From the NCBI GenBank assembly GCA_030608565.1, contig JAUWDY010000003.1, forward strand, positions 9,587 through 73,586: a stretch of 64,000 bases of DNA, in the 5' to 3' direction. Shown here piece by piece: positions 1,387 to 36,240 of this stretch; within the stretch, counting starts at the first letter, position 1, and every line of letters starts with the position of its first letter. The DNA comes from Candidatus Bathyarchaeota archaeon. Lineage in GTDB: Archaea > Thermoproteota > Bathyarchaeia > Bathyarchaeales > Bathyarchaeaceae. The notes under the pieces were generated by a model. That model saw only the letters and a program-made list of their open reading frames with translations, was not told where the DNA came from and ran no database searches. Both the position numbers and the translations under genes were made by a program.

Positions 1387-1532
1387 TCTACTATATTTCG
1401 TGATCTTAACTACTTCTATCTTATCAATTTTAAGAATTGCCTTTGAGATATTCGCTGCATTCCAATTGATTGAAGTTTTATGTAAAGTTTTATTTGATGC
1501 AGAGTCTAACACTACGAGACGGAAGGAATCTT

Positions 1533-2786: not shown

Positions 2787-2787
2787 A

Positions 2788-4904: not shown

Positions 4905-4908
4905 TCTT

Positions 4909-9503: not shown

Positions 9504-9513
9504 TAGCTTTCAC

Positions 9514-12999: not shown

Positions 13000-13015
13000 A
13001 ATAATCATTCTCACT

Positions 13016-22482: not shown

Positions 22483-23060
22483 ATAGCCTTTGTTGGTGTT
22501 CCTTGTCATGTGCTTGCTCTTCGAAAGTTGGAGGCTTGGCAACATAAGTTAGCGGAAAATCTCAAGATTGTAATAGGACTCTTCTGTCTTTGGAGCTTTT
22601 CTTCAAGTAAACTTCTTCGATATCTTTCACGAAATTACGACATCAAGGCCTCTGAAGCCCAGAAAATAGCCCTAACTGACGAATAGCTCATTCACACAAA
22701 AAAAGGCATCACGAGCATACCGCTTCAAGAGATCAAGCAAAATGTTTTGCGCAGATGTCGAACCTGTATTGACTTCCCATCAGAACTCGTGGACATATCA
22801 GTCGGCGGCGCCAACCCATTGAAAGATTGGTCCACCGTCATAATTCGACCAAAAGAGGCGAGGATTTCTTTAACGATGCCGTGAAGCATAAAGCAATAAA
22901 GACCAAAAACATAGATGAAAAACCAGATGTGTTCCCTCAAATTATCGAAATGGCTACAAACAAAAGAAAAACTGCTTTAAGAGAAGTAAGAAAAAGGAAA
23001 CGATTGAGCAAGCCCATCCAACCTGCAATGGAATCGTTTGTCGAGGACAGTACCACATGA
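22483..23060 (+). pseudogene. Decayed 3' copy (about 578 nt) of the FrhB-family gene at 11905-12999
   Basis: It aligns with 12421-12999, with 5 mismatches in the first ~157 nt and clearly lower identity after that. It carries an in-frame TAG (gaaTAGctc vs gaatatctc) and a 1-nt deletion (cgaccaaaagagg vs cgatctaaaacagg). The 5' two-thirds of the gene are missing. Confidence 0.85.
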
Positions 23061-23131: not shown

Positions 23132-24046
23132 CTACTCCAGTCCCGTGTGTTCTATTATTTTCGGAACAATCCACTCAAAGCCTACCGCCATCATATGAAT
23201 CCCTGTGGCGTTAGTCGTTTTTCTTATTTCTCGTATCATTTGGCTAAAAATCTCAATATTCTCTGCGAAAATCGCTTCTTTGCCACCTCTTTCTTTTGCC
23301 TTGCGGATTCGATCTTGCACTTCTTCTGGAACTTTTATGCCTGGAACAAATTCCACCATCCATTTCATCATTCCTACCGATTTGAACGGTGCTATTCCAA
23401 GGAGAATTGGAGTGTTAAGGTAGGACGCTGCATCGAGAAAGTTCTTTGCTTGTTCGACACTGTAGACGCACTGGGTCTGGATGAAGTCGACTCCTATCTT
23501 CACTTTCCTTTCGATTTTCAAAATTTCTGGCTCTAGCGGATCAGCGTTTGGTGCGGCCGCTATACCGATGCTGAATTTAGGTGGGTCATCAATCTTGTTA
23601 TTGTTCAAGTCGACTCCTTCATCTATCATTTTCCTTAGCATATAGACGAAGGTTGCGGAGTCAAGGTCAAAAACTGGTTTAGCTTGAGGCGTATCGCCTA
23701 CTGTGGTGTGATCTCCAGTTAAAGCTAATATATTTTTTATTCCTAGCGCGCCAGCAGCCAACACGTCGGAGATCAAAGCCAAGCGGTTGCGATCACGGGT
23801 TGTCATCTGATAGACGGCTTCAACACCAGCTTCTTTCTGAATCAAATAGGACGGAACAAGCGCATTCATATAACCGAAAGCCGTTGGATTATCTGTAATG
23901 TTTACAGCCACTACGTGCCCCTTCAGGGTTTTTGCTCCTTCAATAACCTCCTGAAGATTGGTTGACTTTACCGGTTCAAGCTCCCCCGTGAAAACGAATT
24001 TTCCCGCTTTGATTTGTTTCATCAGCTCGCTGTAAGCCTCGCCCAT
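23132..24046 (-). CDS. metF: MetF-like methylene-tetrahydrofolate/-H4MPT reductase, paralogue 1
   Basis: 304 aa. FVFTGELEPVKS...NITDNP...LALTGDHTTVGD...PVFDLDS...FIQTQCVY is the acetogen/archaeal MetF pattern. Confidence 0.85.
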   Translation of the reverse strand: MGEAYSELMKQIKAGKFVFTGELEPVKSTNLQEVIEGAKTLKGHVVAVNITDNPTAFGYMNALVPSYLIQKEAGVEAVYQMTTRDRNRLALISDVLAAGALGIKNILALTGDHTTVGDTPQAKPVFDLDSATFVYMLRKMIDEGVDLNNNKIDDPPKFSIGIAAAPNADPLEPEILKIERKVKIGVDFIQTQCVYSVEQAKNFLDAASYLNTPILLGIAPFKSVGMMKWMVEFVPGIKVPEEVQDRIRKAKERGGKEAIFAENIEIFSQMIREIRKTTNATGIHMMAVGFEWIVPKIIEHTGLE

Positions 24047-24732
24047 TACGCTTTCTCCTCCTTCTCTTCTGGTTCGCCACCTAGTTCTCGCGGATGCTCT
24101 GAAACTCGGTAATCTCTAGGAAGCCTAAATTTGGTGAATAGGTCAAGTCTGTTTCTTTCTTTAAGACGATTGTAGATGAGAACCCATGCACAGTCGTTTT
24201 TCCCGCCGCCGACTTCACATTTACCTTTCGTTTGTCCTCCACACGGCCCATTAAGCAGACTCTTCGCACAACGCGTTATTGGACATATACCACCTGTTTC
24301 GAAGAGTATACAGTCGCCACATGCTCTACACATTTCATAAAACTTGCCAACTTTTGTATCATGCATCCCTATGAATTTTGTGTCATTCGCGGGTATGATA
24401 ATCTTGTCAGGAAACAGTTCCGCGAGGGTTTGAACTCCAGCTCCGCATGACAAAGAGATAACAGCGTCATAATCGTCAACCAGTGAGTGAAGCGAAGTTG
24501 TAACAATTTGACGATCACATTGTCGCAGAATGGACATGGCTTTTGTACTAAGCTCTTGTTTGCCCTTCAATCTTCTTTCCATTTCCAACAGAGCCTTCAA
24601 AACTTTAGCCTGCTTCTCACCACCAACTTGAATAATTGATGCGCATCCATCGCAACCAACAATTAAGAGACGTTGGAAGCTTCTTGCCATATCAAAAATC
24701 TCGTGGAGAGGCTTTTGCTGAACTATAATCAC
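24046..24732 (-). CDS. metV: MetV-like Fe-S/zinc-ribbon subunit of methylene-THF reductase, paralogue 1
   Basis: 228 aa. It has LIVGCDGCAS, SCGAGVQTLAE and MCRACGDCILFETGGICPITRCAKSLLNGPCGGQTKGKCEV...DCAW. Its stop overlaps the metF start. Confidence 0.8.
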   Translation of the reverse strand: MIIVQQKPLHEIFDMARSFQRLLIVGCDGCASIIQVGGEKQAKVLKALLEMERRLKGKQELSTKAMSILRQCDRQIVTTSLHSLVDDYDAVISLSCGAGVQTLAELFPDKIIIPANDTKFIGMHDTKVGKFYEMCRACGDCILFETGGICPITRCAKSLLNGPCGGQTKGKCEVGGGKNDCAWVLIYNRLKERNRLDLFTKFRLPRDYRVSEHPRELGGEPEEKEEKA

Positions 24733-24809
24733 AGTATGAGCACTCCTCAGAAACTCATGTGAAAGCGAATTAGTGATATAAGAATTGCCATACGCATGCG
24801 TGCAAGGGT

Positions 24810-25340
24810 TTACCTTTTAACCTTCATGATTCTCAAATAAATCAGATATGCTGGAATAATGTTGATTAAAGCTTGCGTCACGTTGAACAACGCTATTGGA
24901 GCAAGCAAACCTACAACAACAGACGCTGTAATCGGATAAAATAGCTGGAGTAGATAGTAGTTTGCTATGGTCATTACACCCACTCGCGATGTGACAGCAG
25001 CAATTGATTTCGAAACAACATCTTTCCTCAACAGTGCAAAGCCAAATAAAGTCGCCAACTCAGCAATCAACTTCAAAGTTCCTCCCGGAACGTTTCCTCT
25101 AAGAAAAATAATCGAACATCCAATTAGGCAAGTGTACACTGCGCACAAGGGTCCGTAAAGCATTAAGCTAATCATGATAGGTATCCCTGTAAGGTCCCAA
25201 GAGATCCTAGGGTAAAGCGGAAACGGAATGTCGAAAGGAGGTCCACGTATGACTTCCGACAATGCTGCAAGGGCCCCTAAAATGCTGGCTGCCGCAATCT
25301 CTTTAGTTCCCATTTTTCCCAAAACACACACCACTTTCAT
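24810..25340 (-). CDS. Small polytopic membrane protein, ECF-transporter S-component-like
   Basis: 176 aa with 5-6 TM helices. ISWDLTGIPIMISLMLYGPLCAVYTCLIG resembles ECF S components. It sits between frhB paralogue 2 and metV on the same strand. Confidence 0.4.
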   Translation of the reverse strand: MKVVCVLGKMGTKEIAAASILGALAALSEVIRGPPFDIPFPLYPRISWDLTGIPIMISLMLYGPLCAVYTCLIGCSIIFLRGNVPGGTLKLIAELATLFGFALLRKDVVSKSIAAVTSRVGVMTIANYYLLQLFYPITASVVVGLLAPIALFNVTQALINIIPAYLIYLRIMKVKR

Positions 25341-25371
25341 AGAGAATTAACAATACTTGTTCTGCAATCTA

Positions 25372-26415
25372 TCAGCAAACTTCACGTGTCTTTCTCTTCT
25401 TCTTTGAGAGTTTAACCAACAAATTCAAGGCATATGTCTCCTCATCTACAGGTTTAACATTCAGGTATCCGGCTTTTTCAGCACTTGAGAACAAATTTTC
25501 CCCTCTTTCTGTCCGGATAATTATGAATGTCCATCCATCTAAACCTAGACCCCCCGTTGAGATATCTGCGAGTTCAGAGCTGAAATCATCACAGAATCCA
25601 CAGCTTTCTCGACCATATTGCTTCGCTGTCACAAGAGGAACGGTTCTGATTTCAGTTTTTGTTTTAACCAGTAATTTTCCCTTAATGTTTATTTTTATCA
25701 CGTCATTCAGGTTAAGACCTAATGTATCACGGATGTGTTTCTCGGCAAGTCCTTCGTAGGTGAAACATTCTGAGCACATAAGTCCTATTAGAAACATTAG
25801 AGGTTTAGTATGCTTTTTCAAGCCACACATCTGCATTTTTCTGATTGCGCGGATTTGGCATGGCGTACCTACAAATGCTGTGCTTGTCTTTTTCTGTTTG
25901 ATTCCCTCTGTCAAGGCTAAGATATTAGGTGAATAGAAGTATCTTGTTCCGGCGCATTCCAAAATTTCTTCAAAGGTTGTGGCTAATCTTGGAGCTGGAT
26001 ATAGAGGTTTTTCTGGGCTGATTCCCGAAACGACTGCGCTGTCAATAAGCCCATTCTCTAGAGCGAATGACAGAAGTGCAGTAACGACGCCTCCATCCTG
26101 ACAAAGCTTCACGATTCTGTCATCCACTGCTCGAGCCACAACGAGTCGACGATAAACTCCGGACTCTTCCTCAGCTTTCCTTTCTCTGCCAAACACAAAA
26201 TCTTCCATCTTGGGCCACGACCACTCGTATTGGGGACAAACTTGTGCACAGATGCCACAGACTTGACATTCTTTCACCAAGTTAGGTCCTTCCTTCATGT
26301 ACTCTAAACAACTGAAAGGGCAGACAACCACACATGCACCACAACCAACGCATTTCCCAGATGCAACAACACTTGTTCCCAGGGTTTCTTCAAAACTTAC
26401 TTTATCAAAACTCAT
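25372..26415 (-). CDS. FrhB/FpoF-family F420-binding iron-sulfur flavoprotein (paralogue 2)
   Basis: The probable start is MSFDKV at 26415; the ORF is open to 26511. Motifs CVGCGACVVVCP, CQVCGICAQVCP, GGVVTALLSFALENGLIDSAVV, FVGTPCQIRAIRK and CGFCDDFSSELADISTGG are present. Confidence 0.8.
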   Translation of the reverse strand: MSFDKVSFEETLGTSVVASGKCVGCGACVVVCPFSCLEYMKEGPNLVKECQVCGICAQVCPQYEWSWPKMEDFVFGRERKAEEESGVYRRLVVARAVDDRIVKLCQDGGVVTALLSFALENGLIDSAVVSGISPEKPLYPAPRLATTFEEILECAGTRYFYSPNILALTEGIKQKKTSTAFVGTPCQIRAIRKMQMCGLKKHTKPLMFLIGLMCSECFTYEGLAEKHIRDTLGLNLNDVIKINIKGKLLVKTKTEIRTVPLVTAKQYGRESCGFCDDFSSELADISTGGLGLDGWTFIIIRTERGENLFSSAEKAGYLNVKPVDEETYALNLLVKLSKKKRKTREVC

Positions 26416-26549
26416 AGCTAATCTCTCATAGAAAAAATAACTTGAAACCCTAGAGTTTAAAACCTTTTGGAATAATCTAGCGTACATGAGAAATTGACCT
26501 TGAAAGAACAACCTATACCAATTTCAGGTAGCCCCCACAGGCACTAATT

Positions 26550-26593: not shown

Positions 26594-27463
26594 ATGGACC
26601 AGGTTAAGATTGTGGTTTTCAAATGTGGCAATATCGCAACATCACCTTTATTTGAACTTCTCCTCGACGAACTTGCAGACCGTCAAGATATCAGAATCCG
26701 AACGGTGACCACGGGATCAAAGATGAGCGTTGAAGATGTTGAAGAAGCTCTGCCAAAAATCTTCGAATTCAACCCCAATCTTATAGTTTCTATATCTCCC
26801 AATCCGTCGATATCTGGACCAGCAAAGGTGAGAGAGAAGTTATCAAGCAGTGACATACCTAGTGTGGTTATTTCGGATGCCCCGGGAAAGCGCATTAAGA
26901 CCAAACTTGAAGAGCAAGGCTTAGGCTACATAATCATCACAGGCGATCCACTCATCGGAGCGAGAAGAGAGTTTCTAGACCCGATAGAAATGGCAATTTT
27001 CAACTCAAACATTATAAAAGTGCTTGCGATTACTGGCGCCTACAGGATAGCTCACCAAGAAATCGATAAATTGATACACGCGATCAAAAAGGGAGCAAGC
27101 CTATCTTTGCCCAAACTAATAATTGATGCCAACGCAATTCGAGACCGATCTGATTTTAAAAATCCCTACGCAAAAGCCAAAGCATTAGCTGCATACGAGT
27201 TAGCTGAAAAAATCGCCGAGATTAATCTCCAAGCATGCTTCGTAGAGAAAGAAAGCGAGAAATACATTCCCCTCGTCGCTTCAGCACACGAAATAGCTCA
27301 GACAGCTGCCAAACTAGCCGAAGAAGCTAGAGAAATCGAAAAGTACAATGATACATTGGTACGGAAACCCCACTCGAAAAAGGGGAACCTCAAAATCAAA
27401 ACAAAATTAATGCTTCCCCCAACTTCAGATGAAGAGTTCCACCGAAAATCGCCCAAGAAATAA
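26594..27463 (+). CDS. mtd: F420-dependent methylene-H4MPT dehydrogenase
   Basis: 289 aa. VKIVVFKCGNIATSPLFELLLDELADRQDI matches the Mtd N-terminus (..IKCGNIGTSP..DLLLDERADR..). Confidence 0.85.
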   Translation: MDQVKIVVFKCGNIATSPLFELLLDELADRQDIRIRTVTTGSKMSVEDVEEALPKIFEFNPNLIVSISPNPSISGPAKVREKLSSSDIPSVVISDAPGKRIKTKLEEQGLGYIIITGDPLIGARREFLDPIEMAIFNSNIIKVLAITGAYRIAHQEIDKLIHAIKKGASLSLPKLIIDANAIRDRSDFKNPYAKAKALAAYELAEKIAEINLQACFVEKESEKYIPLVASAHEIAQTAAKLAEEAREIEKYNDTLVRKPHSKKGNLKIKTKLMLPPTSDEEFHRKSPKK

Positions 27464-27550: not shown

Positions 27551-28309
27551 ATGGACGTCATTCAAATAATCGGGATTGAACGCTTACCGATTGTGAAAAC
27601 AGGAGACGATTTAGCTGAACTCATCTGTAATGCCGCGGAGAGCCAAGGAGCTCGCATCCAAAACGGGGATATACTTGTAATCACACATGTTATTGTTTCT
27701 CGTGCTGAAGGAAGAATTGTGAACCTTGACGAAGTTGTGCCTTCTGAGTTTGCAAAAAGCATAGCAGAGCAGTATGGAAAGGACCCAACCTTGGTTGAGG
27801 CTGTTCTTCGAGAATCGAAAAGCATCAGACGCATGGGTGATGGAAAACTCATAACAGAAACCAAACACGGATTTATTTGCGCAAATTCCGGCATTGACAA
27901 ATCCAATGTACCCGGAGAAAGAAACGTGGCCTTGCTGCCAGAGGACCCTGACCGTTCTGCCGAGGAAATTCGAGAAAAAATAAGAAAGTTAACTGGTTGT
28001 AATGTTGCAGTTATTATTTCTGATACACACGGGCGCCCACTGCGAAAGGGTGAAATAAATGTGGCTATTGGGGTTGCCGGCATAAAGGCACTTAGAGACA
28101 GAAGAGGAGAAAGCGACTTATTTGGATACGTTTTAAGTGTGAAACAAACAGCAATCATCGATGAGCTTGCTTCGGCTGCTGAACTGGCAATAGGGCAGGC
28201 AAATGAAGGAATCCCAGCAGCTATAATCAGAGGATATGATTATCTGAAATCTGAAAATGCAAAGGCAACTGATTTGATCAGACCAAAGGAAGAAGATCTG
28301 TTCCTATAA
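27551..28309 (+). CDS. cofE: Coenzyme F420-0:L-glutamate ligase
   Basis: 252 aa. LPIVKTGDDLAELI...GDILVITHVIVSRAEGR...ITETKHGFICANSGIDKSNV...ISDTHGRPLRKG is the CofE pattern. Confidence 0.85.
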   Translation: MDVIQIIGIERLPIVKTGDDLAELICNAAESQGARIQNGDILVITHVIVSRAEGRIVNLDEVVPSEFAKSIAEQYGKDPTLVEAVLRESKSIRRMGDGKLITETKHGFICANSGIDKSNVPGERNVALLPEDPDRSAEEIREKIRKLTGCNVAVIISDTHGRPLRKGEINVAIGVAGIKALRDRRGESDLFGYVLSVKQTAIIDELASAAELAIGQANEGIPAAIIRGYDYLKSENAKATDLIRPKEEDLFL

Positions 28310-29393: not shown

Positions 29394-30386
29394 CTAGGAT
29401 GAAGGAGATGATGCAACCGCTAAAGGTGAGATTTTCTGAGCAGCTTTCTTGATTTTGGCTTCTGCAAGCAGTTTGGGAATTATTTCTACATAGTGAACCG
29501 ACATTATATGGCACCCTGCGCACAAGCCAGATTTTTTGAGTTCCTTGATGAAGGGAGCAAAGAACTTGATATTGATCCGATCGTATTTTTCCCGTTTTTC
29601 TGCCTTGGATATTGATTGTTGTTTCACCTGTTTGAATTTGTCCAAAAGTTCCTTCGGGACCTTAACGCCGGGAACAAACTTGTCGAATTCAGCTGCGACG
29701 CCATAACTTCTCATTGGAAAGATGCCAACTAACACGGGGACACTGAACATTCTGAACATTTTCAGGAACTCAATTGTCTTATCGATATCATAGCAAACTT
29801 GCGTTTGGACAAAATCTGCCCCGTTCTCCACTTTTCGAACAACCTTAAGTATCTCCGGCTCTATGGGATCAGCATTAGGATTAGCTGCTACACCAATGTT
29901 AAATTGAGGGCGCGGGCCTTCAATATCATTACCGTTAAGGTCCTTTCCCTCGTCAACCATTCTACGAACCATGCCGGTCAAGAGGGTAGCATCCAAGTCA
30001 AAAACCGGCTTAGCATTAGGCATATCACCTAGAAGGGTATGGTCTCCAGTCAATGTCAACACGTTCTTTATCCCTAGAACTGCAGCTCCCAATAAATCGC
30101 TTGTAAGTGCTATTCGGTTCCTGTCTGCACACCTTATCTGATATATGGTTTCCATTCCAGCTTCTTTCTGGACAACATGTGCAGAGACTAAACTAGCTAC
30201 TGCGGCGTAAGAGGAGGGGTTATCAGTAACATTGCATGCCGTAACATATCCTCTCAGAGACTTGGCTTCTGCTATTACACTGGATAAATCTGTTGTTTTT
30301 ACGGGTTCGAGTTCTCCAGTAAGAACGAATTTTCCTGATTGGATTTTTTTCATTAAATTCGAAAAGGCTTTCCTCAACTTTGTCAC
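29394..30386 (-). CDS. metF: MetF-like methylene-tetrahydrofolate/-H4MPT reductase, paralogue 2
   Basis: 330 aa. By eye it is roughly 55-60% identical to paralogue 1 (FVLTGELEPVKT...NVTDNP...LTLTGDHTLLGD...FVQTQVCY), with a longer C-terminus. Confidence 0.85.
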   Translation of the reverse strand: MTKLRKAFSNLMKKIQSGKFVLTGELEPVKTTDLSSVIAEAKSLRGYVTACNVTDNPSSYAAVASLVSAHVVQKEAGMETIYQIRCADRNRIALTSDLLGAAVLGIKNVLTLTGDHTLLGDMPNAKPVFDLDATLLTGMVRRMVDEGKDLNGNDIEGPRPQFNIGVAANPNADPIEPEILKVVRKVENGADFVQTQVCYDIDKTIEFLKMFRMFSVPVLVGIFPMRSYGVAAEFDKFVPGVKVPKELLDKFKQVKQQSISKAEKREKYDRINIKFFAPFIKELKKSGLCAGCHIMSVHYVEIIPKLLAEAKIKKAAQKISPLAVASSPSS

Positions 30387-30393
30387 CTAATAC

Positions 30394-31182
30394 TCATTTC
30401 ACCACGGGTGCATCTTGGGATTTGGCATTTTTCACTTGTTTTGCCTTTTCTTTTATCGCTTTAACTATATATTTTTCAGTTTCTTCTGGCCCCATCACAG
30501 TTGTTTCTCTTCCTATTCTGTGGCTAGGAATGGCATCTATCCCTCTTGGATACGCCTCCAATCCAAATTCACGTGGAGGCCTTACCTTTCTAAAGAGATC
30601 CATTCTTCCGAATTTCTTTAAACGCTGCCATATTAAGAACCACGCGCAATCGCGTACATAGCCTCCAACCTCGCATTTGCCATCGATCATGCCTCCGCAA
30701 GGCCCGTTCATCAGACCCTTTGCGCATCTGGTCACGGGGCAGATGCCAGCGGTTTCTCCAAGGTGACAATTTCCACATGCCCGGCATCGCTCATAGTAAA
30801 GACCTATGCGTTCAACTTTACCCAAAAAATGAGTGTTAAGTCCTGGGATGCAAGGTAATTCGGCTATCTCAGCTAGGGTTTGGACGCCTGCACCACACAT
30901 GAGACACAAAAAAGCATCTATATTTTTCCCTCTTCCTTGCCTCTGAATTTCCCGCCAATCCTTTCGAGCAATGCGTTCATCACAAGGAGCCTCTACCACA
31001 ACTGTGTCAACGAACCATTTTCCCCGAAGCTTGTCAGCCATTTCTCTAACTTGTGGTTCGCCTCCAGTTTGGACAGCAGTCGCGCATGTTCCACAACCAA
31101 CGATCATAATGTTGCTATAGGATTGAAGCGTTCTCATGATTTCTTCCAAAGGTTTCTGGGTTGTTATAATCATTCTTTCCAC
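30394..31182 (-). CDS. metV: MetV-like subunit, paralogue 2
   Basis: 262 aa. It has MIVGCGTCAT, MCGAGVQTLAE, RCRACGNCHLGETAGICPVTRCAKGLMNGPCGGMIDGKCEV..DCAW and a 35-aa acidic/lysine tail. Confidence 0.8.
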   Translation of the reverse strand: MERMIITTQKPLEEIMRTLQSYSNIMIVGCGTCATAVQTGGEPQVREMADKLRGKWFVDTVVVEAPCDERIARKDWREIQRQGRGKNIDAFLCLMCGAGVQTLAEIAELPCIPGLNTHFLGKVERIGLYYERCRACGNCHLGETAGICPVTRCAKGLMNGPCGGMIDGKCEVGGYVRDCAWFLIWQRLKKFGRMDLFRKVRPPREFGLEAYPRGIDAIPSHRIGRETTVMGPEETEKYIVKAIKEKAKQVKNAKSQDAPVVK

Positions 31183-31332
31183 GCCGTTTTGTTTTTCTCT
31201 AATTCACCTTCTCGGTGCCCTCCATACTCATGGAGAGAAGATACTGTGAAGGAAGTGAAAAAAACTCGTTGTGCGATATTAAGCTTTTGCATTATCAATC
31301 TACACCCCAAATTCTGGAGCCTAGTCTTTATA

Positions 31333-31342
31333 CTTTTATAAA
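31333..31342 (+). promoter_or_regulatory. TATA-box candidate (CTTTTATAAA) for the hdrA-like operon
   Basis: It ends about 55 nt upstream of the in-frame GTG at 31398, in the metV2/hdrA divergent spacer. Confidence 0.35.
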
Positions 31343-31397
31343 CTACGATATCATTACTACAATTCCACGCCATGGACCTACAGGAGAAAAAGCAGCT

Positions 31398-34300
31398 GTG
31401 ACAAACGACATTCTAGTCATAGGCGGAGGAATAGCAGGCATAACAGCTGCTCTAAACCTTGCAGAACAAGGTCATCAAGTCTATCTCATTGAAAAAGAAC
31501 CTTCCATCGGAGGACGAATGGCTCAACTTGACAAAACTTTTCCAACACTCGATTGCTCTATATGCATTCTAGCACCAAAGATGGTTGAGGTTTCTCGTCA
31601 TCCAAATATTCATCTTTTCACATGCTCAGAAGTCGAGAAAGTTGACCCGATAGACAAAGGAAAAACGTTTCGAGTAAAAGTAAAGAAGAGACCACGTTTC
31701 GTCAACGAAGAAAAATGTACTGGATGCAGGCTCTGCACAGAGAAATGTCCAGTTAAGATACCTAACGAATTCGAAGAAAAGCTGGGCAAGCGGAAAGCCA
31801 TCTATATGCCATTTCCGCAAGCGGTGCCTGCCACAGCTGTTATAGACGAGGAAAATTGCCTCTACTTCACTAAGGGTGTATGCAAAGTCTGCCAGAAATT
31901 CTGCCCAGCAGACGCCATAGATTTTGAACAGAAGGTTGAGGAAATTAAACTGGAAGTAGCAGCTATTGTTGTTGCCACGGGTTTTGATCTCCTTGATCCT
32001 TCCGTTTTGCCTCAGTATGGATACGGTAGATTCCCGAATGTATTAACTTCTCTTGAATATGAAAGGCTAATGAACGCAGCTGGCCCAACTAGTGGAAAAA
32101 TCCTCAAGGTATCAGACAAAAAGGAGCCGGAAAAACTTGCCTTTATTCAATGTATAGGCTCTAGAAATGAGAATGTAAAACCATACTGCTCCCAGATCTG
32201 TTGCACATATGCCACAAAAGAGGCAATCGTCACCAAGGAACATAATCCAAAGATAGACATAACAATCTTCTACAACGACCTTCGGGCATCAGGGAAAGGA
32301 CACCAAGAGTTTGTGAGAAGAGCAACAGACGAATTCGGCATAAAATATGTCAAAGGTCTACCCAGCGAAGTTCAACTTGACCTCAAAACAAACCGCCTCA
32401 AAATCAGATATGCTGACCTTCTGAAAGGTGAAGTAGAACCTACCCTGGTCGACATGGTTGTTTTATGTCCAGCTGTTGTCCCGAAGAGAGACAGTCAAGA
32501 ACTAGCAAAAACTTTAGGGATAGGCACAACAGAATACGGGTTTCTAAAGGCTGTGGGGACGTCAGCTCCAGTTGACACAGTCATCCCGGGAATCTATGTG
32601 TGCGGCGCTTGTGAAGGCCCAAAAGACATATCTCACACGGTGGCCCAAGCAAGTGCTGCTTCGACAACCGCTACATCTCGAACAGAACTAGTTCATGCCG
32701 AAACCAAGCGAATCAATGTTGAAGAAAAACCTGTGGGGAAAGAATCGCGTATTGGGGTTTTTGTCTGCAACTGTGGCATCAACATCGGCACCGTTGTAGA
32801 CGTGCCAAAGGTTGTTGAGTCTGCCAAAACCTTAGATGACGTAGTTCATGCCGAGGAACTCCTGTTTGCTTGCTCTAAGGATGCTCTTGAAAAGATCAAA
32901 GATGCCATTAGAGAGTATGAGTTAAACCGTGTTATCGTCGCCTCATGCACCCCAAGAACTCATGAACCCCTCTTTCGTGACACTTGCGAAGAGTCTGGCC
33001 TCAACCCATATCTCTTTGAGATGGTTAACATTCGAGAGCACGACTCATGGGTGCATCACAAACAGCCTAAAGAAGCCACAGAAAAAGCCAAAGACCTTGT
33101 TCGAATGGCAGTGGCCAAAGCAAAACTTCTGCGTCCCCTAAAACGACTAGAAGCTGATGTAACCCCATCCGTACTAATCATCGGTGGCGGAGTTTCCGGA
33201 TTAGTGGCAGCCAAGGCTGTTGCGGACAAGGGATTCAAGACATACATCGTTGAGAGAGAAAGCAAGCTTGGAGGAAGACGCATTGAAAGTTACGCCATTC
33301 CCTTCGAAGACCTCGATGCTAAGGTTCTGCTTGACCCCATCATCAACATGGTGGAAAACCACGAAAACATAGAAGTCTTCCTTTCCGCCCGACTGAAAGA
33401 GGTTAAGGGATCCATAGGCAATTTTGACGTGGCACTGCTTCAGAACGGCAAACCTGAAACATTAAGGGTTGGAGCGATAATCGTTGCCGTAGGAACAGAA
33501 GAACTGAGACCCAAAGGACTTTACGGCTACGGAAAAAATGACAACATCGTGACACTCTCAGAGCTTAGGCAACTGGCTAGACAGAAAAAGTTGACTGGCA
33601 AAGAAAAAATTGTCATGATTCTCTGTGTAGGCGTCCGAGAAAAAGAAGGACGAACTTACTGCAGCGCCACTTGCTGCGCTGAAGCTCTAGACTGTAGCCT
33701 AGAAATTAAGGAAAAATATCCCGAAATGCAGGTTTATGTTCTCTATCGAGATATACAGTTGCCATTAGAAGGCAGGAAATATTATCGCAAGGCTCATGAA
33801 AAGGGCATAAACTTCATACGATATGTTCCTGAAAAGCAACCTGAGGTAGCTTTTCAAGGAGAGAAGTCTATTGTTGAAGTTGACGATGTAGTGGCCGGAA
33901 TCAAGCTGAAAATTACAGCAGACAAAGTTGCTTTGGCGACACCTTTAATCCCCAGAGAAACCAATCAGGATCTCGCTCCTAAACTGAAAGTTCCGCTTAA
34001 CACGCAAGGCTTCTTCCTAGAAGCTCATCCAAAGCTGAGACCCTTAGATTTTGCTACTGACGGAATCTATCTTTGCGGAACCTGTCACAGTCCTCAAAAT
34101 CTTTCTGAATGCATATATCAAGCACTTGGAGCGGCATCAAGGGCTCTTATCCCCCTTATGAAAGGCAAAGTAATGAACGAACCCATGATTGCCGAAGTAA
34201 ATGCAGACCTCTGCGTAGCTTGTGCAAACTGCGAAGTAGTATGCGAATACGGAGCCATAAAAGTTGAAGGTTATGCAAAAGTTAACCCTCTTTTATGCAA

Positions 34301-34835
34301 AGGTTGTGGAACATGCTCTGTCGAATGCCCCGCTGCTGCTATAACAATGCACTATTTCCGTGACGATCAGATTTCATCTATGATAGAGGCAGCCTTGAGC
34401 ACTAGGCCTCTAACGGACAAGCCTAGAGCCTTAGCGTTTTTCTGCAACTGGTGCGCCTATGCTGGTGCCGATATGGCAGGAGTAAGTAGGTTCGATTATC
34501 CACCAACAGCCGAAATCATTCGAGTCATGTGCTCAGGCAGAGTCAATGAAACCCATCTGCTTCAAGCCTTCTTGCAAGGGGCGGATGGAGTCCTTGTTGG
34601 TGGATGTCACCCGGGCACATGCCACTACATTTCCGGAAACTTGAAGGCTGAAGAACGAATAAGAAATGTGAAAAAATGGCTTGAAGAAGCAGGCTTGGAA
34701 CCTCAAAGACTTAGGTTAGAATGGGTGTCAGCTGGAGAGGGAAAGAAAATGGCAGAAGTTATGGAGGACTTTACAGCACAACTGGAAAAGCTGGGTCCAA
34801 GTCCCCTTAGGAAATTGCTGGAGGACAAACAATGA
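31398..34835 (+). CDS. hdrA: Giant HdrA-like flavo-iron-sulfur protein: truncated HdrA module + full HdrA module + MvhD/FlpD domain
   Basis: About 1145 aa from the GTG at 31398, with GGAG at 31383-31386; the ORF is open from 31215. Two dinucleotide folds (DILVIGGGIAG, SVLIIGGGVSG), one TFPTLDCSIC motif, four CxxCxxCxxxCP motifs, an HdrA N-domain (IGVFVCNCGINIG...VASCTPRTHE) in the middle, and a C-terminal FFCNWCAYAGAD...GGCHPGTCHY. Confidence 0.85.
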   Translation: MTNDILVIGGGIAGITAALNLAEQGHQVYLIEKEPSIGGRMAQLDKTFPTLDCSICILAPKMVEVSRHPNIHLFTCSEVEKVDPIDKGKTFRVKVKKRPRFVNEEKCTGCRLCTEKCPVKIPNEFEEKLGKRKAIYMPFPQAVPATAVIDEENCLYFTKGVCKVCQKFCPADAIDFEQKVEEIKLEVAAIVVATGFDLLDPSVLPQYGYGRFPNVLTSLEYERLMNAAGPTSGKILKVSDKKEPEKLAFIQCIGSRNENVKPYCSQICCTYATKEAIVTKEHNPKIDITIFYNDLRASGKGHQEFVRRATDEFGIKYVKGLPSEVQLDLKTNRLKIRYADLLKGEVEPTLVDMVVLCPAVVPKRDSQELAKTLGIGTTEYGFLKAVGTSAPVDTVIPGIYVCGACEGPKDISHTVAQASAASTTATSRTELVHAETKRINVEEKPVGKESRIGVFVCNCGINIGTVVDVPKVVESAKTLDDVVHAEELLFACSKDALEKIKDAIREYELNRVIVASCTPRTHEPLFRDTCEESGLNPYLFEMVNIREHDSWVHHKQPKEATEKAKDLVRMAVAKAKLLRPLKRLEADVTPSVLIIGGGVSGLVAAKAVADKGFKTYIVERESKLGGRRIESYAIPFEDLDAKVLLDPIINMVENHENIEVFLSARLKEVKGSIGNFDVALLQNGKPETLRVGAIIVAVGTEELRPKGLYGYGKNDNIVTLSELRQLARQKKLTGKEKIVMILCVGVREKEGRTYCSATCCAEALDCSLEIKEKYPEMQVYVLYRDIQLPLEGRKYYRKAHEKGINFIRYVPEKQPEVAFQGEKSIVEVDDVVAGIKLKITADKVALATPLIPRETNQDLAPKLKVPLNTQGFFLEAHPKLRPLDFATDGIYLCGTCHSPQNLSECIYQALGAASRALIPLMKGKVMNEPMIAEVNADLCVACANCEVVCEYGAIKVEGYAKVNPLLCKGCGTCSVECPAAAITMHYFRDDQISSMIEAALSTRPLTDKPRALAFFCNWCAYAGADMAGVSRFDYPPTAEIIRVMCSGRVNETHLLQAFLQGADGVLVGGCHPGTCHYISGNLKAEERIRNVKKWLEEAGLEPQRLRLEWVSAGEGKKMAEVMEDFTAQLEKLGPSPLRKLLEDKQ

Positions 34836-35350
34836 CAAAGGAGACTGTCCGAGCTTCAGAGCTTGATTCTGACTTCAAGTTTGAGGTCGCCAAGACCTAT
34901 GAGGGAAAAACAGTTCTTTGGTGTGTTCAGTGTGGCATGTGCACCTCCAACTGTCCTTATTCTGATGTCTTGGATGTGAAGCCACATCAAGTGATTAAAA
35001 TGGTTCTGTTGGGAATGAGAGAACAAGCCATTAGCTGCAAGTCGATCTGGTTATGCTCTACTTGTTTCATGTGTGCCGAAAGGTGTCCTCAGGGCGTGGA
35101 GCTTGGGAGAGTTATGTTTGCCCTAAAAAATATCGCTGCAAGAGAGAAAGGTGTTCCGGAAGGATTTAGGCTAGTTGGGCAACAAGTATTTCAAACTGGG
35201 CGTGCAATGGAAATTACCGCATTTCGTGAGAAAGAACGAGAGCGCTTGGAGCTACCAAAAACTCAGACCGATTCCGAAGACATAAAGAAACTGCTTAAAA
35301 AACTGAAGTTCGACAAACTTCTGAAAGATAAAGGAGACCAACAGTGGTGA
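34832..35350 (+). CDS. hdrC: Heterodisulfide reductase subunit C-like (2x[4Fe-4S])
   Basis: 172 aa with CVQCGMCTSNCP and CSTCFMCAERCP. It is coupled to hdrA by an ATGA overlap. Confidence 0.85.
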   Translation: MTKETVRASELDSDFKFEVAKTYEGKTVLWCVQCGMCTSNCPYSDVLDVKPHQVIKMVLLGMREQAISCKSIWLCSTCFMCAERCPQGVELGRVMFALKNIAAREKGVPEGFRLVGQQVFQTGRAMEITAFREKERERLELPKTQTDSEDIKKLLKKLKFDKLLKDKGDQQW

Positions 35351-36240
35351 AGTACTCTTATTTTCTAGGCTGCCAAGTTCCGGCTAGAGTAAACTACTGC
35401 GACCTAGCCACAAGAAGGGTTACCGAAGCTTTAGGAATAGAGTTGATTGATCTTCAAGGCGCTGGTTGTTGTGGCTGTTACCTCCGTTCCGTAGATTCCA
35501 GAGTTGCGCTTGCTCTAGCTTCAAGGATTCTAGCATTGTCTGACAAAACGGGTCTCGATTTGGTTGTGTTATGCAATAGCTGCTACTCCACCCTTGTTGA
35601 AACTAATGAATTTCTGAGAGAAAATCCGGAGTTGCGGACGGAGATTAATGAGTTGCTTGCTCCTCAAGATTTAGAATATAAAGGCAAAACCAAAGTGAAG
35701 GACATCATTCAAGTCTTCTATCATGATTACGGTCTCCACAAAATCAGCTCGAAAGTCACTAAATCTTTTGAGGGATTGAAAGTCGCTGTTCAGTACGGCT
35801 GTCACCTTCTCCGTCCTTCGAAGAGCACAAAGTTTGACAACCCGGAGGCACCACGTATTCTCGACGACCTAGTGGAGGTTACTAGGGCAAAAAGCATCTA
35901 CTGGCCCCTTAAACTTTGGTGCTGCGGCTTCCCAACACTCCCTATGAACAGAGAGATGGGCACAAGCCTAGCAAGAAACAAGCTTAGAGATGCAAAGGAT
36001 GCAGGAGCAGATTGCATGGTGACCACATGCCCTTCGTGCCAAATATCCTTCGATGTACTACAACCCAGCACTGCAAAACATTATGGAGAGGAATACAACC
36101 TTCCAGTATTGTACTATCCTCAACTCTTGGGGTTAGCCATGAACATGAGTTTCAAAGAAGTGGGCTTGCATCTGAATCGTGTTTCAACCAAACCCATCCT
36201 GCGCTTCATTGAAGAGAAACGAATTGAAGCCACTGCCTAA
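35344..36240 (+). CDS. hdrB: Heterodisulfide reductase subunit B-like (two CCG domains)
   Basis: 298 aa. The cysteine patterns LGCQ...GCCGC...CNSC and YGCH...WCCGFP...CPSC indicate two complete CCG motifs. Confidence 0.85.
   Translation: MVKYSYFLGCQVPARVNYCDLATRRVTEALGIELIDLQGAGCCGCYLRSVDSRVALALASRILALSDKTGLDLVVLCNSCYSTLVETNEFLRENPELRTEINELLAPQDLEYKGKTKVKDIIQVFYHDYGLHKISSKVTKSFEGLKVAVQYGCHLLRPSKSTKFDNPEAPRILDDLVEVTRAKSIYWPLKLWCCGFPTLPMNREMGTSLARNKLRDAKDAGADCMVTTCPSCQISFDVLQPSTAKHYGEEYNLPVLYYPQLLGLAMNMSFKEVGLHLNRVSTKPILRFIEEKRIEATA

What the first reader, a model, noticed from the sequence alone, without database searches (positions are those of the whole stretch)
23132..26415. Four-gene operon frhB2 - membrane protein - metV1 - metF1: candidate F420H2-dependent, possibly membrane-anchored methylene-H4MPT reductase (Mer substitute)
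On the minus strand an FrhB-family F420-oxidising flavo-FeS protein, a 176-aa polytopic membrane protein, MetV and MetF follow each other with short gaps of 31 nt and 77 nt and one 1-nt overlap. They are divergent from mtd-cofE, both of which are F420-dependent. MetF/MetV by themselves have no known F420 site, and FrhB homologues are the standard F420 entry module in FrhABG, FpoF, Fsr and FdhAB. The arrangement therefore suggests electron flow F420H2 -> FrhB2 (FAD/FeS) -> MetV (FeS) -> MetF. This would functionally replace Mer in the H4MPT branch; no mer gene is in the window. The interposed ECF-S-like membrane protein could anchor the complex or import a cofactor.
Basis: inference. Interest (0 to 1): 0.65.

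Follow-up and report, generated by a model that had tools for sequence, protein, structure and literature searches.

The report
F420 module beside MetVF reductase genes
In this bathyarchaeal genome an F420-reactive iron-sulfur flavoprotein gene and a riboflavin-transporter-like gene sit directly upstream of a MetV-MetF methylene-pterin reductase pair. This hints at, but does not establish, an F420-driven replacement for the classical Mer enzyme.

Summary
The four genes are real and lie at the stated coordinates. The organism is a member of the Bathyarchaeia.

The "four-gene operon" looks more like two units. The first is frhB2 plus a RibU-like ECF S-component. The second is metV1-metF1, which keeps a conserved promoter-like box of its own.

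Among 86 loci holding an FrhB2 orthologue, the exact gene order occurs only in two close relatives, and a 94%-identical relative lacks metVF at that site. MetVF still recurs near FrhB2 in at least five other arrangements (6 of 20 loci with 4 kb on each side). It usually lies beside an MvhD-containing flavoprotein whose gene is operonic with frhB2.

FrhB2 clusters as often or more often with F420 biosynthesis genes, Mtd, Ftr and Mch. It also clusters with canonical Mer, and Mer co-occurs with the MetVF-FrhB2 cluster in three lineages.

The closest solved structure is the plug-in F420-reductase ζ subunit of an F420-reducing CO dehydrogenase. The membrane protein is RibU-like, so it is probably a (deaza)flavin importer and not an anchor.

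F420-to-MetVF coupling is plausible. The "Mer substitute" claim is untested for this genome, and membrane anchoring is unlikely.

The parts
25372..26415 (-). frhB2. An FpoF/ζ-type F420-reactive Fe-S flavoprotein, with an N-terminal 2x[4Fe-4S] ferredoxin domain (residues ~1-83) and an FrhB core.
   Evidence: PF04422 and PF04432 plus Fer4. It scores below the NCBIfam equivalog cut-offs for both FrhB and FpoF. Cys motifs lie at 22/25/28/32 and 50/53/56/60, with invariant core Cys at 186/214/272/275. The best PDB match is 8riu_B, by sequence (E 1e-56) and by fold (TMq 0.82).
26455..26472 (-). Conserved promoter-like block TTCCAAAAGGTTTTAAAC, about 40-57 nt upstream of the frhB2 ATG.
   Evidence: It is conserved upstream of frhB2 in the window, L001, L003, L006-L009 and L011. 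It supports the ATG at 26415 as the start rather than the upstream TTG.
24810..25340 (-). RibU/FmnP-like ECF S-component, probably co-transcribed with frhB2.
   Evidence: PF12822. A profile of 14 homologues hits only RibU in the PDB (E 6e-9). IMG names the family 'riboflavin transporter FmnP'. The AF2 model (pLDDT 81.8) best matches RibU entries 5kbw, 5kc4 and 3p5n, with TM 0.71-0.82. It lies directly downstream of frhB2 in 14 of 62 loci, in three subtypes.
24776..24789 (-). BRE/TATA-like block GGCAATTCTTATAT, upstream of metV1 and inside the 77-nt gap.
   Evidence: The block G-AATT-TTATAT and an AGGAG Shine-Dalgarno sequence are invariant upstream of metV in 10 loci. In five of them (L015, L046, L062, L087, L090) metV heads a divergently transcribed unit; in L021 it likewise heads a unit divergent from NfnB-MvhD. 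It is the only match in the window.
24046..24732 (-). metV1, the Fe-S/zinc-ribbon subunit of a MetVF-type reductase.
   Evidence: PF12225, E 1e-33. The C-terminal Cys cluster at 135-181 is shared with MetV2. No solved homologue was found.
23132..24046 (-). metF1, the catalytic subunit of a methylene-tetrahydropterin reductase. It is translationally coupled to metV1.
   Evidence: PF02219. Orthologues at 64-96% identity are widespread in Bathyarchaeia. Natural MetV-MetF fusions exist (P0160 and others).
22483..23060 (+). Degraded copy of the 3' half of frhB1, convergent with metF1. It is a scar of rearrangement at the metVF1 boundary.
   Evidence: It is 88% identical in nucleotides to 12421-13012 and carries an internal stop and a frameshift. 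In L001, L007 and L074 sequence matching the frhB1 3' end lies just beyond this point.
26594..27463 (+). mtd, the F420-dependent methylene-H4MPT dehydrogenase, divergent from frhB2.
   Evidence: PF01993, E 2e-119. NF002162 scores 392 bits against a cut-off of 297.
27551..28309 (+). cofE, the F420-0:γ-glutamyl ligase.
   Evidence: TIGR01916 scores 301 bits against a cut-off of 181.
29394..31182 (-). metV2-metF2, the second MetVF pair.
   Evidence: PF12225 and PF02219. It is 45% and 49% identical to MetV1 and MetF1.
31215..36240 (+). hdrA-hdrA-mvhD fusion (1206 aa), hdrC and hdrB, divergent from metV2. This is a Moorella/Sporomusa-like Hdr-type partner set.
   Evidence: Pfam FlpD, Pyr_redox_2 and Fer4, plus CCG domains. 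The orthologue in L101 (67% identity) lies directly upstream of a MetV1/MetF1-type fusion.

Best explanation
The locus is two adjacent, co-directional transcription units inside a bathyarchaeal F420/H4MPT C1 gene neighbourhood.

Unit 1 is frhB2 plus a RibU-like S-component. FrhB2 is a soluble FpoF/ζ-type module. F420/F420H2 reacts at its FAD. Electrons pass through its own [4Fe-4S] cluster and the two clusters of its N-terminal ferredoxin domain to ferredoxin-level Fe-S partners. It acts as the cell's general link between the F420 pool (used by Mtd and, where present, Mer) and Fe-S carriers. The RibU-like protein imports a flavin or deazaflavin.

Unit 2 is metV1-metF1, a MetVF-type methylene-tetrahydropterin reductase fed through MetV's Fe-S clusters.

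The adjacency reflects pathway-level clustering and possibly electron exchange between the two units. It does not demonstrate a dedicated four-subunit, membrane-bound enzyme.

Shown: gene identities, folds, synteny statistics and the promoter-like element. Inferred: the redox partners and the direction of electron flow.
For: - Architecture. The closest structure is the plug-in ζ subunit, and its N-terminal ferredoxin domain is what docks it onto a ferredoxin-type enzyme.
- Orthologue group. FrhB2 forms one well-conserved group (50-94% identity across the 86 loci) across Bathyarchaeia, and the gene is often solitary.
- Unbiased neighbourhood counts. Among 20 loci with 4 kb on each side: F420 biosynthesis genes in 9, H4MPT C1 genes in 8, MetVF in 6, an MvhD flavoprotein in 4, the ECF S-component in 3, none of these in 5.
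- Canonical Mer. It lies about 1.7 kb from frhB2 in L003, L010 and L100, with no MetVF nearby.
- Open problem in the literature. Bathyarchaeia carry a stand-alone FrhB without the hydrogenase subunits, and the source of F420H2 is unexplained (PMC7886697; PMC8407382).
- metV1 promoter. A promoter-like block is conserved even in loci where metV heads its own unit.
- Polymorphism. metVF1 is absent at this site in a 94%-identical relative, and a frhB1 pseudogene scar flanks it.
- Membrane protein. RibU-like by sequence profile, by fold and by IMG's name. It is linked to frhB2 and cofE, not to metVF.
Against: - MetVF is one of the most frequent single neighbours of FrhB2 (top at ±4 kb; Mtd leads at ±5.9 kb), and the linked loci are scattered over at least four clades of the FrhB2 tree.
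- In L046, L062, L087, L090 and L096, frhB2 is operonic (26-102 nt gaps) with an NfnB/HdrA-like MvhD fusion that is divergent from metVF. This suggests a specific complex, not loose clustering.
- No terminator-like T-run separates the S-component gene from metV1, so read-through transcription is possible.
- F420H2-to-ferredoxin transfer is thermodynamically uphill, so a free ferredoxin shuttle cannot carry F420H2 electrons to MetVF. This rests on established midpoint potentials.
- No biochemical data exist for any of these proteins.
Confidence: 0.45

Rival explanations
1. FrhB2, MetV1 and MetF1 form a dedicated F420H2-dependent methylene-H4MPT reductase, with electron flow F420H2 -> FAD/FeS of FrhB2 -> MetV FeS -> MetF flavin. 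FrhB2 plays the role that RnfC2 plays in the NADH-dependent MetVF enzyme of Acetobacterium woodii, and the enzyme replaces Mer in this lineage.
For: - The genes are co-directional and tightly spaced in the window, L001 and L074.
- MetVF lies within 4 kb of FrhB2 in 6 of 20 unbiased loci, in at least five arrangements.
- MetVF alone cannot use NAD(P)H and takes electrons through Fe-S clusters (PMC9430772).
- FrhB-like modules are known to convert ferredoxin-type enzymes to F420 (PMC11493965).
- In this genus, mtd occupies the slot beside frhB2 that holds mer in L003, L010 and L100. No mer was found in about 77 kb examined.
- Some Bathyarchaeia families lack mer, and an unknown substitute has been postulated (PMC8407382).
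Against: - The order is restricted to one genus and is polymorphic there: L007 lacks metVF1.
- metV1 has its own conserved promoter-like box.
- Orthologous MetVF1-FrhB2 clusters co-occur with bona fide Mer, which scores 410 bits on TIGR03555 against a cut-off of 349.
- Elsewhere MetVF nearly always has an MvhD-containing flavoprotein as its immediate neighbour. That protein is missing from the window's metVF1 unit.
- No FrhB-MetV or FrhB-MetF fusion appeared among the 10 longest proteins checked out of the 150 best representatives.
- The membrane protein is a RibU-like transporter, not an anchor.
Confidence: 0.22
2. FrhB2 is the F420 port of a larger flavin-based electron-bifurcating or confurcating complex. 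The complex is built on an MvhD-containing flavoprotein, and MetVF is its high-potential end. In most lineages that flavoprotein is an NfnB/GltD-like MvhD fusion. In this genome it would be the HdrA-HdrA-MvhD/HdrCB set encoded 4.8 kb away. The complex would be analogous to the MetVF-HdrABC-MvhD type of Moorella and Sporomusa, but with F420 in place of, or in addition to, NAD(P)H.
For: - The operon NfnB/HdrA-like-MvhD -> FrhB2 lies divergent from metV-metF in L046, L062, L087, L090 and L096. Rearranged versions occur in L015 and L021, and L004/L005 have a polyferredoxin-MvhD -> metV -> metF unit divergent from frhB2.
- A natural FrhB + NfnB/GltD-like fusion exists (P0390).
- The window's HdrA-HdrA-MvhD orthologue sits directly upstream of a MetV1F1-type fusion in L101.
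- MetVF physically interacts with HdrA and MvhD in Sporomusa ovata (PMC9430772).
Against: - In the window, the Hdr set is divergent from metVF2, not metVF1. It is separated from frhB2 by mtd, cofE, a regulator remnant and metVF2.
- Many FrhB2 orthologues have no such flavoprotein within 6 kb.
- With H4MPT as carrier, the methylene/methyl couple is too close to F420 for bifurcation to ferredoxin. This rests on established potentials.
Confidence: 0.23
3. The frhB2 + RibU-like unit serves F420 biosynthesis or salvage, not catabolism. The S-component imports FO or riboflavin. FrhB2 supplies reducing power to a step such as dehydro-F420 reduction by the FbiB-C-terminal-like nitroreductase.
For: - cofE, cofD, cofC and an FbiB-C-like nitroreductase are collectively the commonest neighbours of frhB2 at ±2 kb and ±4 kb (9 of 20 loci at ±4 kb). 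The nitroreductase is convergent immediately downstream in 6 loci.
- S-component genes also flank cofE or the nitroreductase gene in L050, L063, L064, L071 and L082.
Against: - No known F420 biosynthetic step uses an FrhB-type protein (PMC8498797, and established pathway knowledge).
- The equally frequent linkage to Mtd, Mer, Ftr, Mch and MetVF fits a role in using F420 better.
Confidence: 0.08

Closest known systems
Type III MTHFR of Acetobacterium woodii (MetF-MetV-RnfC2). Classes as summarised in PMC9430772.
   Same: A MetVF core that cannot use NAD(P)H by itself, with a separately encoded flavin/Fe-S dehydrogenase module next to it that would confer donor specificity.
   Different: Here the candidate module is FrhB-type (F420), not RnfC-type (NADH). 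It has its own promoter and a transporter gene between it and metV. The association is not conserved across relatives, and nothing has been purified.
Hdr-type MTHFR (MetVF-HdrABC-MvhD) of Moorella thermoacetica and Sporomusa ovata
   Same: The window's metV2-metF2 pair is divergent from the hdrA-mvhD/hdrC/hdrB set. In other Bathyarchaeia, MetVF1 orthologues also sit beside MvhD-containing flavoproteins.
   Different: The metV1-metF1 pair in the finding has no adjacent MvhD or Hdr gene. In Bathyarchaeia an FrhB gene is often added to the MvhD-flavoprotein operon, which is not described for the bacterial systems.
ζ subunit of the F420-reducing CODH, and the FrhB-like subunit of the F420-reducing Fwd, of Ca. 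Ethanoperedens thermophilum (PDB 8RIU and 8RJA; PMC11493965)
   Same: Same domain order, a 2x[4Fe-4S] ferredoxin domain followed by an FrhB F420-reductase domain. 8RIU_B is the best sequence and fold match (36% identity, TMq 0.82). It is the precedent for an FrhB-like module docking on an enzyme that normally uses ferredoxin.
   Different: FrhB2 lacks the C-terminal dimerisation extension (residues 350-370 of ζ). It is not encoded with cdhA/cdhE, and at 36% identity it is not an orthologue. Its partner is unknown.
Soluble FpoF acting as a ferredoxin:F420 oxidoreductase in Methanosarcina mazei (Welte & Deppenmeier 2011, cited in PMC8407382). From prior knowledge; the paper itself was not read here.
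   Same: A stand-alone ferredoxin-domain + FrhB protein that could equilibrate ferredoxin with F420. This fits the frequent solitary position of frhB2.
   Different: FrhB2 scores far below the FpoF equivalog cut-offs (125 bits against 444-475). The window's other paralogue, FrhB1, is the one located beside Nuo/Fpo-like genes.
Mer (F420-dependent methylene-H4MPT reductase, luciferase-like TIM barrel)
   Different: The fold and mechanism are unrelated: Mer transfers a hydride directly, with no flavin or Fe-S cluster. Canonical Mer co-exists with the orthologous MetVF-FrhB2 cluster in at least three bathyarchaeal lineages.
RibU/FmnP riboflavin S-component of ECF transporters (PDB 5KBW, 3P5N)
   Same: Six-helix S-component fold. 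RibU entries give the best fold matches (TM 0.71-0.82) and the only PDB profile hit.
   Different: About 20% identity. No EcfA/EcfT genes are nearby. Its genomic association with F420 genes suggests the substrate might be a deazaflavin (FO) and not riboflavin.

Membership tests
FrhB/FdhB/FpoF family (F420-reactive Fe-S flavoproteins) | FrhB_FdhB_N and FrhB_FdhB_C domains | tested here: met
   PF04422 E 3e-22 and PF04432 E 1e-39.
FrhB/FdhB/FpoF family (F420-reactive Fe-S flavoproteins) | Fold with FAD/F420 pocket and one [4Fe-4S] cluster in the core | tested here: met
   The AF2 core model matches FrhB (TMt 0.84-0.86, 38-39% identity) and 8riu_B. Four invariant core Cys lie at 186, 214, 272 and 275. 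Individual pocket residues were not checked.
FrhB/FdhB/FpoF family (F420-reactive Fe-S flavoproteins) | Orthology to hydrogenase FrhB or to FpoF (NCBIfam equivalog cut-offs) | tested here: not met
   TIGR03289 scores 227 against 331.5. NF006807 scores 243 against 269. The FpoF models score 125-126 against 444-475. FrhB2 is a separate paralogue group.
FrhB/FdhB/FpoF family (F420-reactive Fe-S flavoproteins) | F420(H2) oxidoreductase activity | not testable with these tools
   Needs an enzyme assay.
Plug-in F420-reductase subunits (ζ of F420-reducing CODH; PMC11493965) | N-terminal 2x[4Fe-4S] ferredoxin domain fused to the FrhB domain | tested here: met
   Two CxxCxxCxxxCP motifs at 22-33 and 50-61, invariant in 45 orthologues. 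Full-length alignment to 8riu_B over residues 2-328.
Plug-in F420-reductase subunits (ζ of F420-reducing CODH; PMC11493965) | Physical docking on a partner Fe-S enzyme | not testable with these tools
   No multimer modelling or biochemistry was available. Genomic partner candidates vary between loci.
Plug-in F420-reductase subunits (ζ of F420-reducing CODH; PMC11493965) | C-terminal extension forming the homodimer interface (ζ residues 350-370) | tested here: not met
   FrhB2 ends at residue 347. The alignment to ζ stops at residue 328 of 370.
MetVF-type methylene-tetrahydrofolate reductase | MetF (MTHFR TIM barrel) with an adjacent MetV (PF12225) | tested here: met
   PF02219 and PF12225, with a 1-nt overlap of the genes. 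Natural MetV-MetF fusions exist among orthologues.
MetVF-type methylene-tetrahydrofolate reductase | Conserved Cys ligands in MetV for the Fe-S/Zn sites | tested here: met
   Cys at 135, 138, 141, 150, 155, 164, 172 and 181 are shared between MetV1 and MetV2.
MetVF-type methylene-tetrahydrofolate reductase | No NAD(P)H use; electrons enter through MetV | not testable with these tools
   Known for the bacterial enzymes (PMC9430772). Not assayable here.
MetVF-type methylene-tetrahydrofolate reductase | Pterin specificity (H4F versus H4MPT) | not tested
   Context alone argues for H4MPT: MetVF is embedded in fwd-mch clusters in L091/L092 and lies beside mtd here.
Four-gene operon (single transcription unit) | Co-transcription of frhB2, the S-component gene, metV1 and metF1 | tested here: inconclusive
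   The short gaps and the absence of a T-run favour read-through. A conserved BRE/TATA-like box plus Shine-Dalgarno sequence upstream of metV1 favours an internal promoter. No transcript data.
Four-gene operon (single transcription unit) | Conservation of the gene order in related genomes | tested here: not met
   The order is present only in L001 and L074 among 86 loci. It is absent in L007, whose FrhB2 is 94% identical.
ECF transporter S-component, RibU type | S-component fold, closest to RibU | tested here: met
   PF12822. RibU is the only PDB profile hit, E 6e-9. Foldseek's top five matches are all RibU, TM 0.71-0.82, against 0.55-0.66 for ThiT, BioY and FolT.
ECF transporter S-component, RibU type | Presence of an EcfA/A'/T energising module | not tested
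   None was seen among the window ORFs scanned. The rest of the genome was not available.
Mer (canonical methylene-H4MPT reductase) | A luciferase-like F420-dependent protein passing TIGR03555 in this genome | tested here: inconclusive
   None in the window or its flanks. The rest of the genome could not be searched. Mer is present beside the orthologous clusters in L087, L090, L096 and L100.

The most novel reading that the evidence does not exclude
FrhB2-type modules make MetVF-type reductases F420-dependent. The coupling would be direct in this genus and would go through NfnB/HdrA-MvhD flavoproteins in other Bathyarchaeia. That would define a fifth class of methylene-tetrahydropterin reductase. 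It would also supply the missing electron carrier for the MetF step in archaea that run the H4MPT Wood-Ljungdahl pathway without Mer, or alongside it.
Probability: 0.3. Interest if true: 0.75.

Novelty: new variant of a known kind. Interest (0 to 1): 0.5.

Why it matters
Which electron carrier serves MetF in archaea that use it in the H4MPT pathway is an acknowledged open question. It applies to ANME-1, Syntropharchaeum, Bathyarchaeia and others (PMC9012536). So is the source of F420H2 in Bathyarchaeia, which lack the Frh hydrogenase subunits and FpoF (PMC7886697, PMC8407382).

The recurrent linkage between FrhB2, an MvhD flavoprotein and MetVF gives a concrete set of three or four proteins to co-express and assay. 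If F420 coupling were shown, it would change energy-yield calculations for acetogenesis or C1 oxidation in one of the most abundant sediment archaeal groups. It would also extend the "plug-in F420 reductase" principle recently shown for CODH and Fwd.

If FrhB2 instead proves to be a general ferredoxin:F420 oxidoreductase, that too would fill a gap in bathyarchaeal metabolic models.

Tried and rejected
- Membrane anchor. Rejected. The 176-aa protein is RibU-like by profile, by fold and by IMG's name. It travels with frhB2 and the cof genes, not with metVF.
- Rosetta-stone fusions of FrhB2 with MetV or MetF. None was found among the 10 longest proteins Pfam-checked out of the best 150 representatives in 1.84 billion proteins. 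Fusions found were FrhB + NfnB/GltD-like, FrhB + CBS pair and FrhB + polyferredoxin.
- FrhB2 as an orthologue of the CODH ζ subunit. Not supported. Identity is 36%, the C-terminal extension is missing, and there is no cdhA/cdhE linkage beyond general proximity.
- Looking for mer in this genome. Only the window plus about 13 kb of flank could be read, and none was found.
- Solved homologue of MetV. None. MetF1 hits only distant MTHFR structures.
- The bacterial σ70 promoter/terminator scanner was not used, because the organism is archaeal. Promoter inference rests on cross-locus conservation instead.
- Literature. No paper in the searchable library links FrhB with MetVF. The library is incomplete, so prior publication cannot be excluded.

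Full report
**Observation.** The four minus-strand ORFs are present exactly as described.
- FrhB-like protein, 25372-26415, 347 aa from the ATG. A longer TTG-initiated ORF exists, but a conserved promoter-like block lies inside it.
- A 176-aa membrane protein, 24810-25340.
- MetV, 24046-24732.
- MetF, 23132-24046.

The gaps are 31 nt and 77 nt, and metV/metF overlap by 1 nt (TAATG). Pfam gives strong hits for FrhB_FdhB_N/C plus an N-terminal 4Fe-4S dicluster region, for MetV (PF12225) and for MTHFR (PF02219). The ECF S-component hit (PF12822) is marginal but above threshold. The divergent neighbours pass NCBIfam equivalog cut-offs as F420-dependent Mtd and CofE.

The wider window also encodes:
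- a second metV2-metF2 pair (29394-31182), divergent from a 1206-aa HdrA-HdrA-MvhD fusion with HdrC and HdrB;
- RACo and the five-subunit archaeal CODH/ACS;
- Nuo/Fpo-like genes with a second FrhB paralogue, FrhB1.

Hit names and the titles of related loci place the organism in Bathyarchaeia.

**What FrhB2 is.** FrhB2 falls below the NCBIfam cut-offs for both hydrogenase FrhB and FpoF. It is only 32% identical to FrhB1. It forms its own well-conserved orthologue group: at least 67% identity in the 120 best clusters, and 50-94% across 86 loci.

It has two invariant CxxCxxCxxxCP motifs in the first 61 residues and four invariant Cys in the core. Its best PDB match, by sequence (E 1e-56, full length) and by fold (TMq 0.82, 36% identity), is chain B of 8RIU. 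That chain is the ζ subunit of the F420-reducing CO dehydrogenase of Ca. Ethanoperedens thermophilum. In ζ, an N-terminal two-cluster ferredoxin domain anchors an FrhB-like F420 reductase onto an enzyme that normally uses ferredoxin (PMC11493965). The next matches are hydrogenase FrhB (38-39% identity), the FrhB-like subunit of the F420-reducing Fwd complex (8RJA) and Fsr.

FrhB2 is therefore a plausible modular F420 port. At 36% identity, and without ζ's C-terminal dimerisation extension, it is not a ζ orthologue.

**What the membrane protein is.**
- A profile of 14 homologues hits only RibU in the PDB (E 6e-9).
- IMG names many family members "riboflavin transporter FmnP".
- An AF2 model (pLDDT 81.8) has RibU structures as its five best Foldseek matches (TM 0.71-0.82). 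ThiT, BioY and FolT score 0.55-0.66.

Three subtypes that are 27-31% identical to one another occupy the slot directly after frhB2 in 14 of 62 loci. L001 carries a different subtype from the window, although its FrhB2 is 90% identical and its MetV1 97%. Elsewhere these genes flank cofE or an FbiB-C-like nitroreductase gene. The protein is therefore tied to frhB2 and F420 biosynthesis, not to metVF. A (deaza)flavin importer is much more likely than a membrane anchor.

**Synteny from the FrhB2 side.** I collected 86 FrhB2-anchored loci and annotated them by tblastn.

The order frhB2 - S-component - metV - metF occurs only in L001 and L074, both close relatives. L007 has FrhB2 at 94% identity and the S-component at 92%. 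After the S-component it has about 600 nt of unrelated sequence and then the 3' end of frhB1, with no metVF.

In the window, a degraded copy of the frhB1 3' half (22483-23060) abuts metF1. It is 88% identical in nucleotides to the original and carries a stop and a frameshift. So metVF1 is a presence/absence polymorphism flanked by a rearrangement scar.

MetVF still recurs near FrhB2 in other geometries:
- L004/L005: polyferredoxin-MvhD -> metV -> metF, divergent from frhB2.
- L015: convergent, 2.3 kb downstream.
- L021: metV -> metF, upstream and co-directional.
- L046/L062: metVF divergent from an NfnB/GltD-like-MvhD fusion -> frhB2 operon.

Among unbiased loci with at least 4 kb on both sides (n = 20), the counts within 4 kb were: MetVF 6, F420 biosynthesis genes (cofC/D/E, FbiB-C-like) 9, H4MPT C1 genes (mtd, mer, ftr, mch) 8, an MvhD flavoprotein 4, the S-component 3, none of these 5. 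The MetVF-linked loci are scattered over at least four clades of the FrhB2 tree.

**Synteny from the MetF1 side**.
- L087 and L090 (two genomes of about 1.85 Mb) and L096/L097 (MetF1 85% identical) all show metV -> metF divergent from [NfnB/HdrA-like-MvhD -> FrhB2]. Mer, three small regulator/CBS genes, Mtd and an ADP-forming acetyl-CoA synthetase lie a few kb downstream.
- The luciferase-like protein there passes both Mer equivalog models (410 bits against 349; 417 against 276). Its L096 and L090 counterparts are 81% and 79% identical to it.
- L098 has the NfnB-MvhD partner but no FrhB.
- L101 has an orthologue of the window's HdrA-HdrA-MvhD (67% identity) directly upstream of a MetV-MetF fusion. 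On the same contig, FrhB2 (77%) -> S-component lies about 17.5 kb away, divergent from Mer-...-CofE.
- L091/L092 place MetVF after fwdDBAC-mch and a CoA-disulfide-reductase-like flavoprotein.
- L088/L089 and L099 show no obvious partner.

The most consistent neighbour of MetVF is therefore an MvhD-containing flavoprotein, as in bacterial Hdr-type enzymes. FrhB2 is often added to that operon. A natural FrhB + NfnB/GltD-like fusion exists (P0390), but no FrhB-MetV/F fusion was seen among the 10 longest proteins Pfam-checked out of the 150 best representatives.

**Transcription units.** Upstream of metV, two blocks are invariant across 10 loci: G-AATT-TTATAT, about 45-55 nt before the start codon, and an AGGAG Shine-Dalgarno sequence. 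In five of these loci metV is the first gene of a divergent unit, and in L021 it likewise heads a unit divergent from NfnB-MvhD, so a promoter must be present there. The window copy (24776-24789) lies inside the 77-nt gap and is the only match in the window. frhB2 has its own conserved block (26455-26472). The 31-nt gap before the S-component gene leaves no room for a promoter.

I therefore read the locus as two units, frhB2 + S-component and metV1 + metF1. Read-through is possible, because no T-run terminator separates them.

**Mechanism.** MetVF-type enzymes cannot oxidise NAD(P)H. They take electrons through MetV's Fe-S centres from reduced ferredoxin in vitro, from RnfC2, or from Hdr/MvhD partners (PMC9430772). 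An FrhB module with a ferredoxin-like docking domain could in principle play the RnfC2 role with F420H2. By established midpoint potentials, F420H2 (about -340 mV) can reduce methylene-H4MPT (about -310 mV) or methylene-H4F (about -200 mV).

Several facts point instead to FrhB2 as the general link between the F420 pool and Fe-S carriers. It is frequently solitary. It is linked to F420 biosynthesis genes and to the genuinely F420-dependent Mtd and Mer. Bathyarchaeia also have an unexplained source of F420H2 (PMC7886697; PMC8407382). On this reading MetVF would be one of several possible partners.

My probabilities:
- about 0.45 for the general-module reading, with pathway-level clustering;
- about 0.23 for a larger MvhD-flavoprotein complex with FrhB2 as its F420 port;
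- about 0.08 for a role in F420 biosynthesis or salvage.

**"Mer substitute".** MetF replacing Mer is an established proposal for ANME-1 and has been noted for Bathyarchaeia-type MetF (PMC9012536). Some bathyarchaeal families lack mer. In the window's genus, mtd occupies the slot beside frhB2 that holds mer in L003, L010 and L100, and no mer was found in about 77 kb. This is suggestive. However, the orthologous MetVF1-FrhB2 cluster coexists with canonical Mer in three other lineages. The system is therefore not inherently a Mer replacement, and the rest of this genome could not be searched.

**Novelty.** All the parts belong to known families. The recurrent linkage of FrhB2, an MvhD flavoprotein and MetVF in Bathyarchaeia was not found in the searchable literature. 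If it is functional, it would be a new variant of MetVF-type reductases. Interest is moderate. It bears directly on two open questions, but the specific claims of a four-gene operon, a membrane anchor and a Mer substitute are only partly borne out.

Noticed in passing
window 22483-23060 (+) versus 12421-13012 (+): A degraded duplicate of the 3' half of frhB1 lies convergent just after metF1. It is 88% identical in nucleotides and has an internal stop and a frameshift. The two copies flank about 9.5 kb holding cation exchangers, ArsR, GH130, an SSB-like gene and others. In relatives L001, L007 and L074, sequence matching the frhB1 3' end lies directly beyond this point, which suggests a recent insertion or rearrangement.
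   Followed up: partly
L007:7606-8374 versus window 23132-24809: A relative with FrhB2 at 94% identity and the S-component at 92% lacks metV1-metF1 at this site. It has about 600 nt of unrelated sequence and then the frhB1 3' end. The contig ends there, so an assembly effect cannot be fully excluded.
   Followed up: partly
window 24810-25340 (-); L001:7039-7605; L072:2688-3260: Three RibU-like S-component subtypes, only 27-31% identical to one another, occupy the same slot after frhB2. The close relative L001 has a different subtype from the window. Their linkage to cofE, cofD, cofC and the FbiB-C-like gene suggests import of FO (deazaflavin) or riboflavin.
   Followed up: partly
window 11905-12999 (+), with 1470-5256 (+) and 8046-11577 (-): A second FrhB paralogue, FrhB1, has a ferredoxin domain and is 32% identical to FrhB2. 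It lies beside Nuo/Fpo-like complex genes and is a candidate FpoF-like input module. Published analyses state that Bathyarchaeia lack fpoF.
   Followed up: no
window 28476-28966 (-): An Lrp/AsnC-type regulator appears split into two overlapping ORFs of 91 and 103 aa, compared with an intact 163-aa homologue in L034. This could be a frameshift or a pseudogene. The gene is absent in L001, where only 189 nt separate metF2 and cofE.
   Followed up: no
window 29394-36240: metV2-metF2 is divergent from a 1206-aa HdrA-HdrA-MvhD fusion with HdrC and HdrB, a Moorella/Sporomusa-like Hdr-type MTHFR gene set in an archaeon. In L101 the orthologous Hdr fusion precedes a MetV1F1-type fusion instead.
   Followed up: partly
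L004:7045-7725, and the equivalent genes in L005, L012, L016, L029, L030, L063, L064, L076, L077 and L083: A stand-alone homologue of the FbiB C-terminal domain (nitroreductase-like; TIGR03553 at 142 bits, below cut-off) lies next to cofD, and often cofC, beside frhB2. This hints that Bathyarchaeia use the dehydro-F420 (PEP) route of F420 biosynthesis.
   Followed up: no
P0390, P0365, P0388 (representatives related to FrhB2): Natural fusions of the ferredoxin-FrhB architecture exist with an NfnB/GltD-like flavoprotein (906 aa) and with CBS-domain pairs. CBS-domain genes also flank metV (L088, L089) and mer (L087, L090, L096, L100).
   Followed up: no
L001 (CAYTTK010000009.1): The contig is labelled as an uncultured Pirellulales bacterium MAG. 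It is about 94-96% identical in nucleotides to this bathyarchaeal window over the aligned ~8.6 kb, so it is probably a binning contaminant.
   Followed up: no
window 24790-24809 (-): A 10-nt perfect palindrome, ACGCATGCGT, lies immediately after the S-component stop codon and just upstream of the metV1 promoter-like box. It could be a regulator site. L074 has a diverged version.
   Followed up: no
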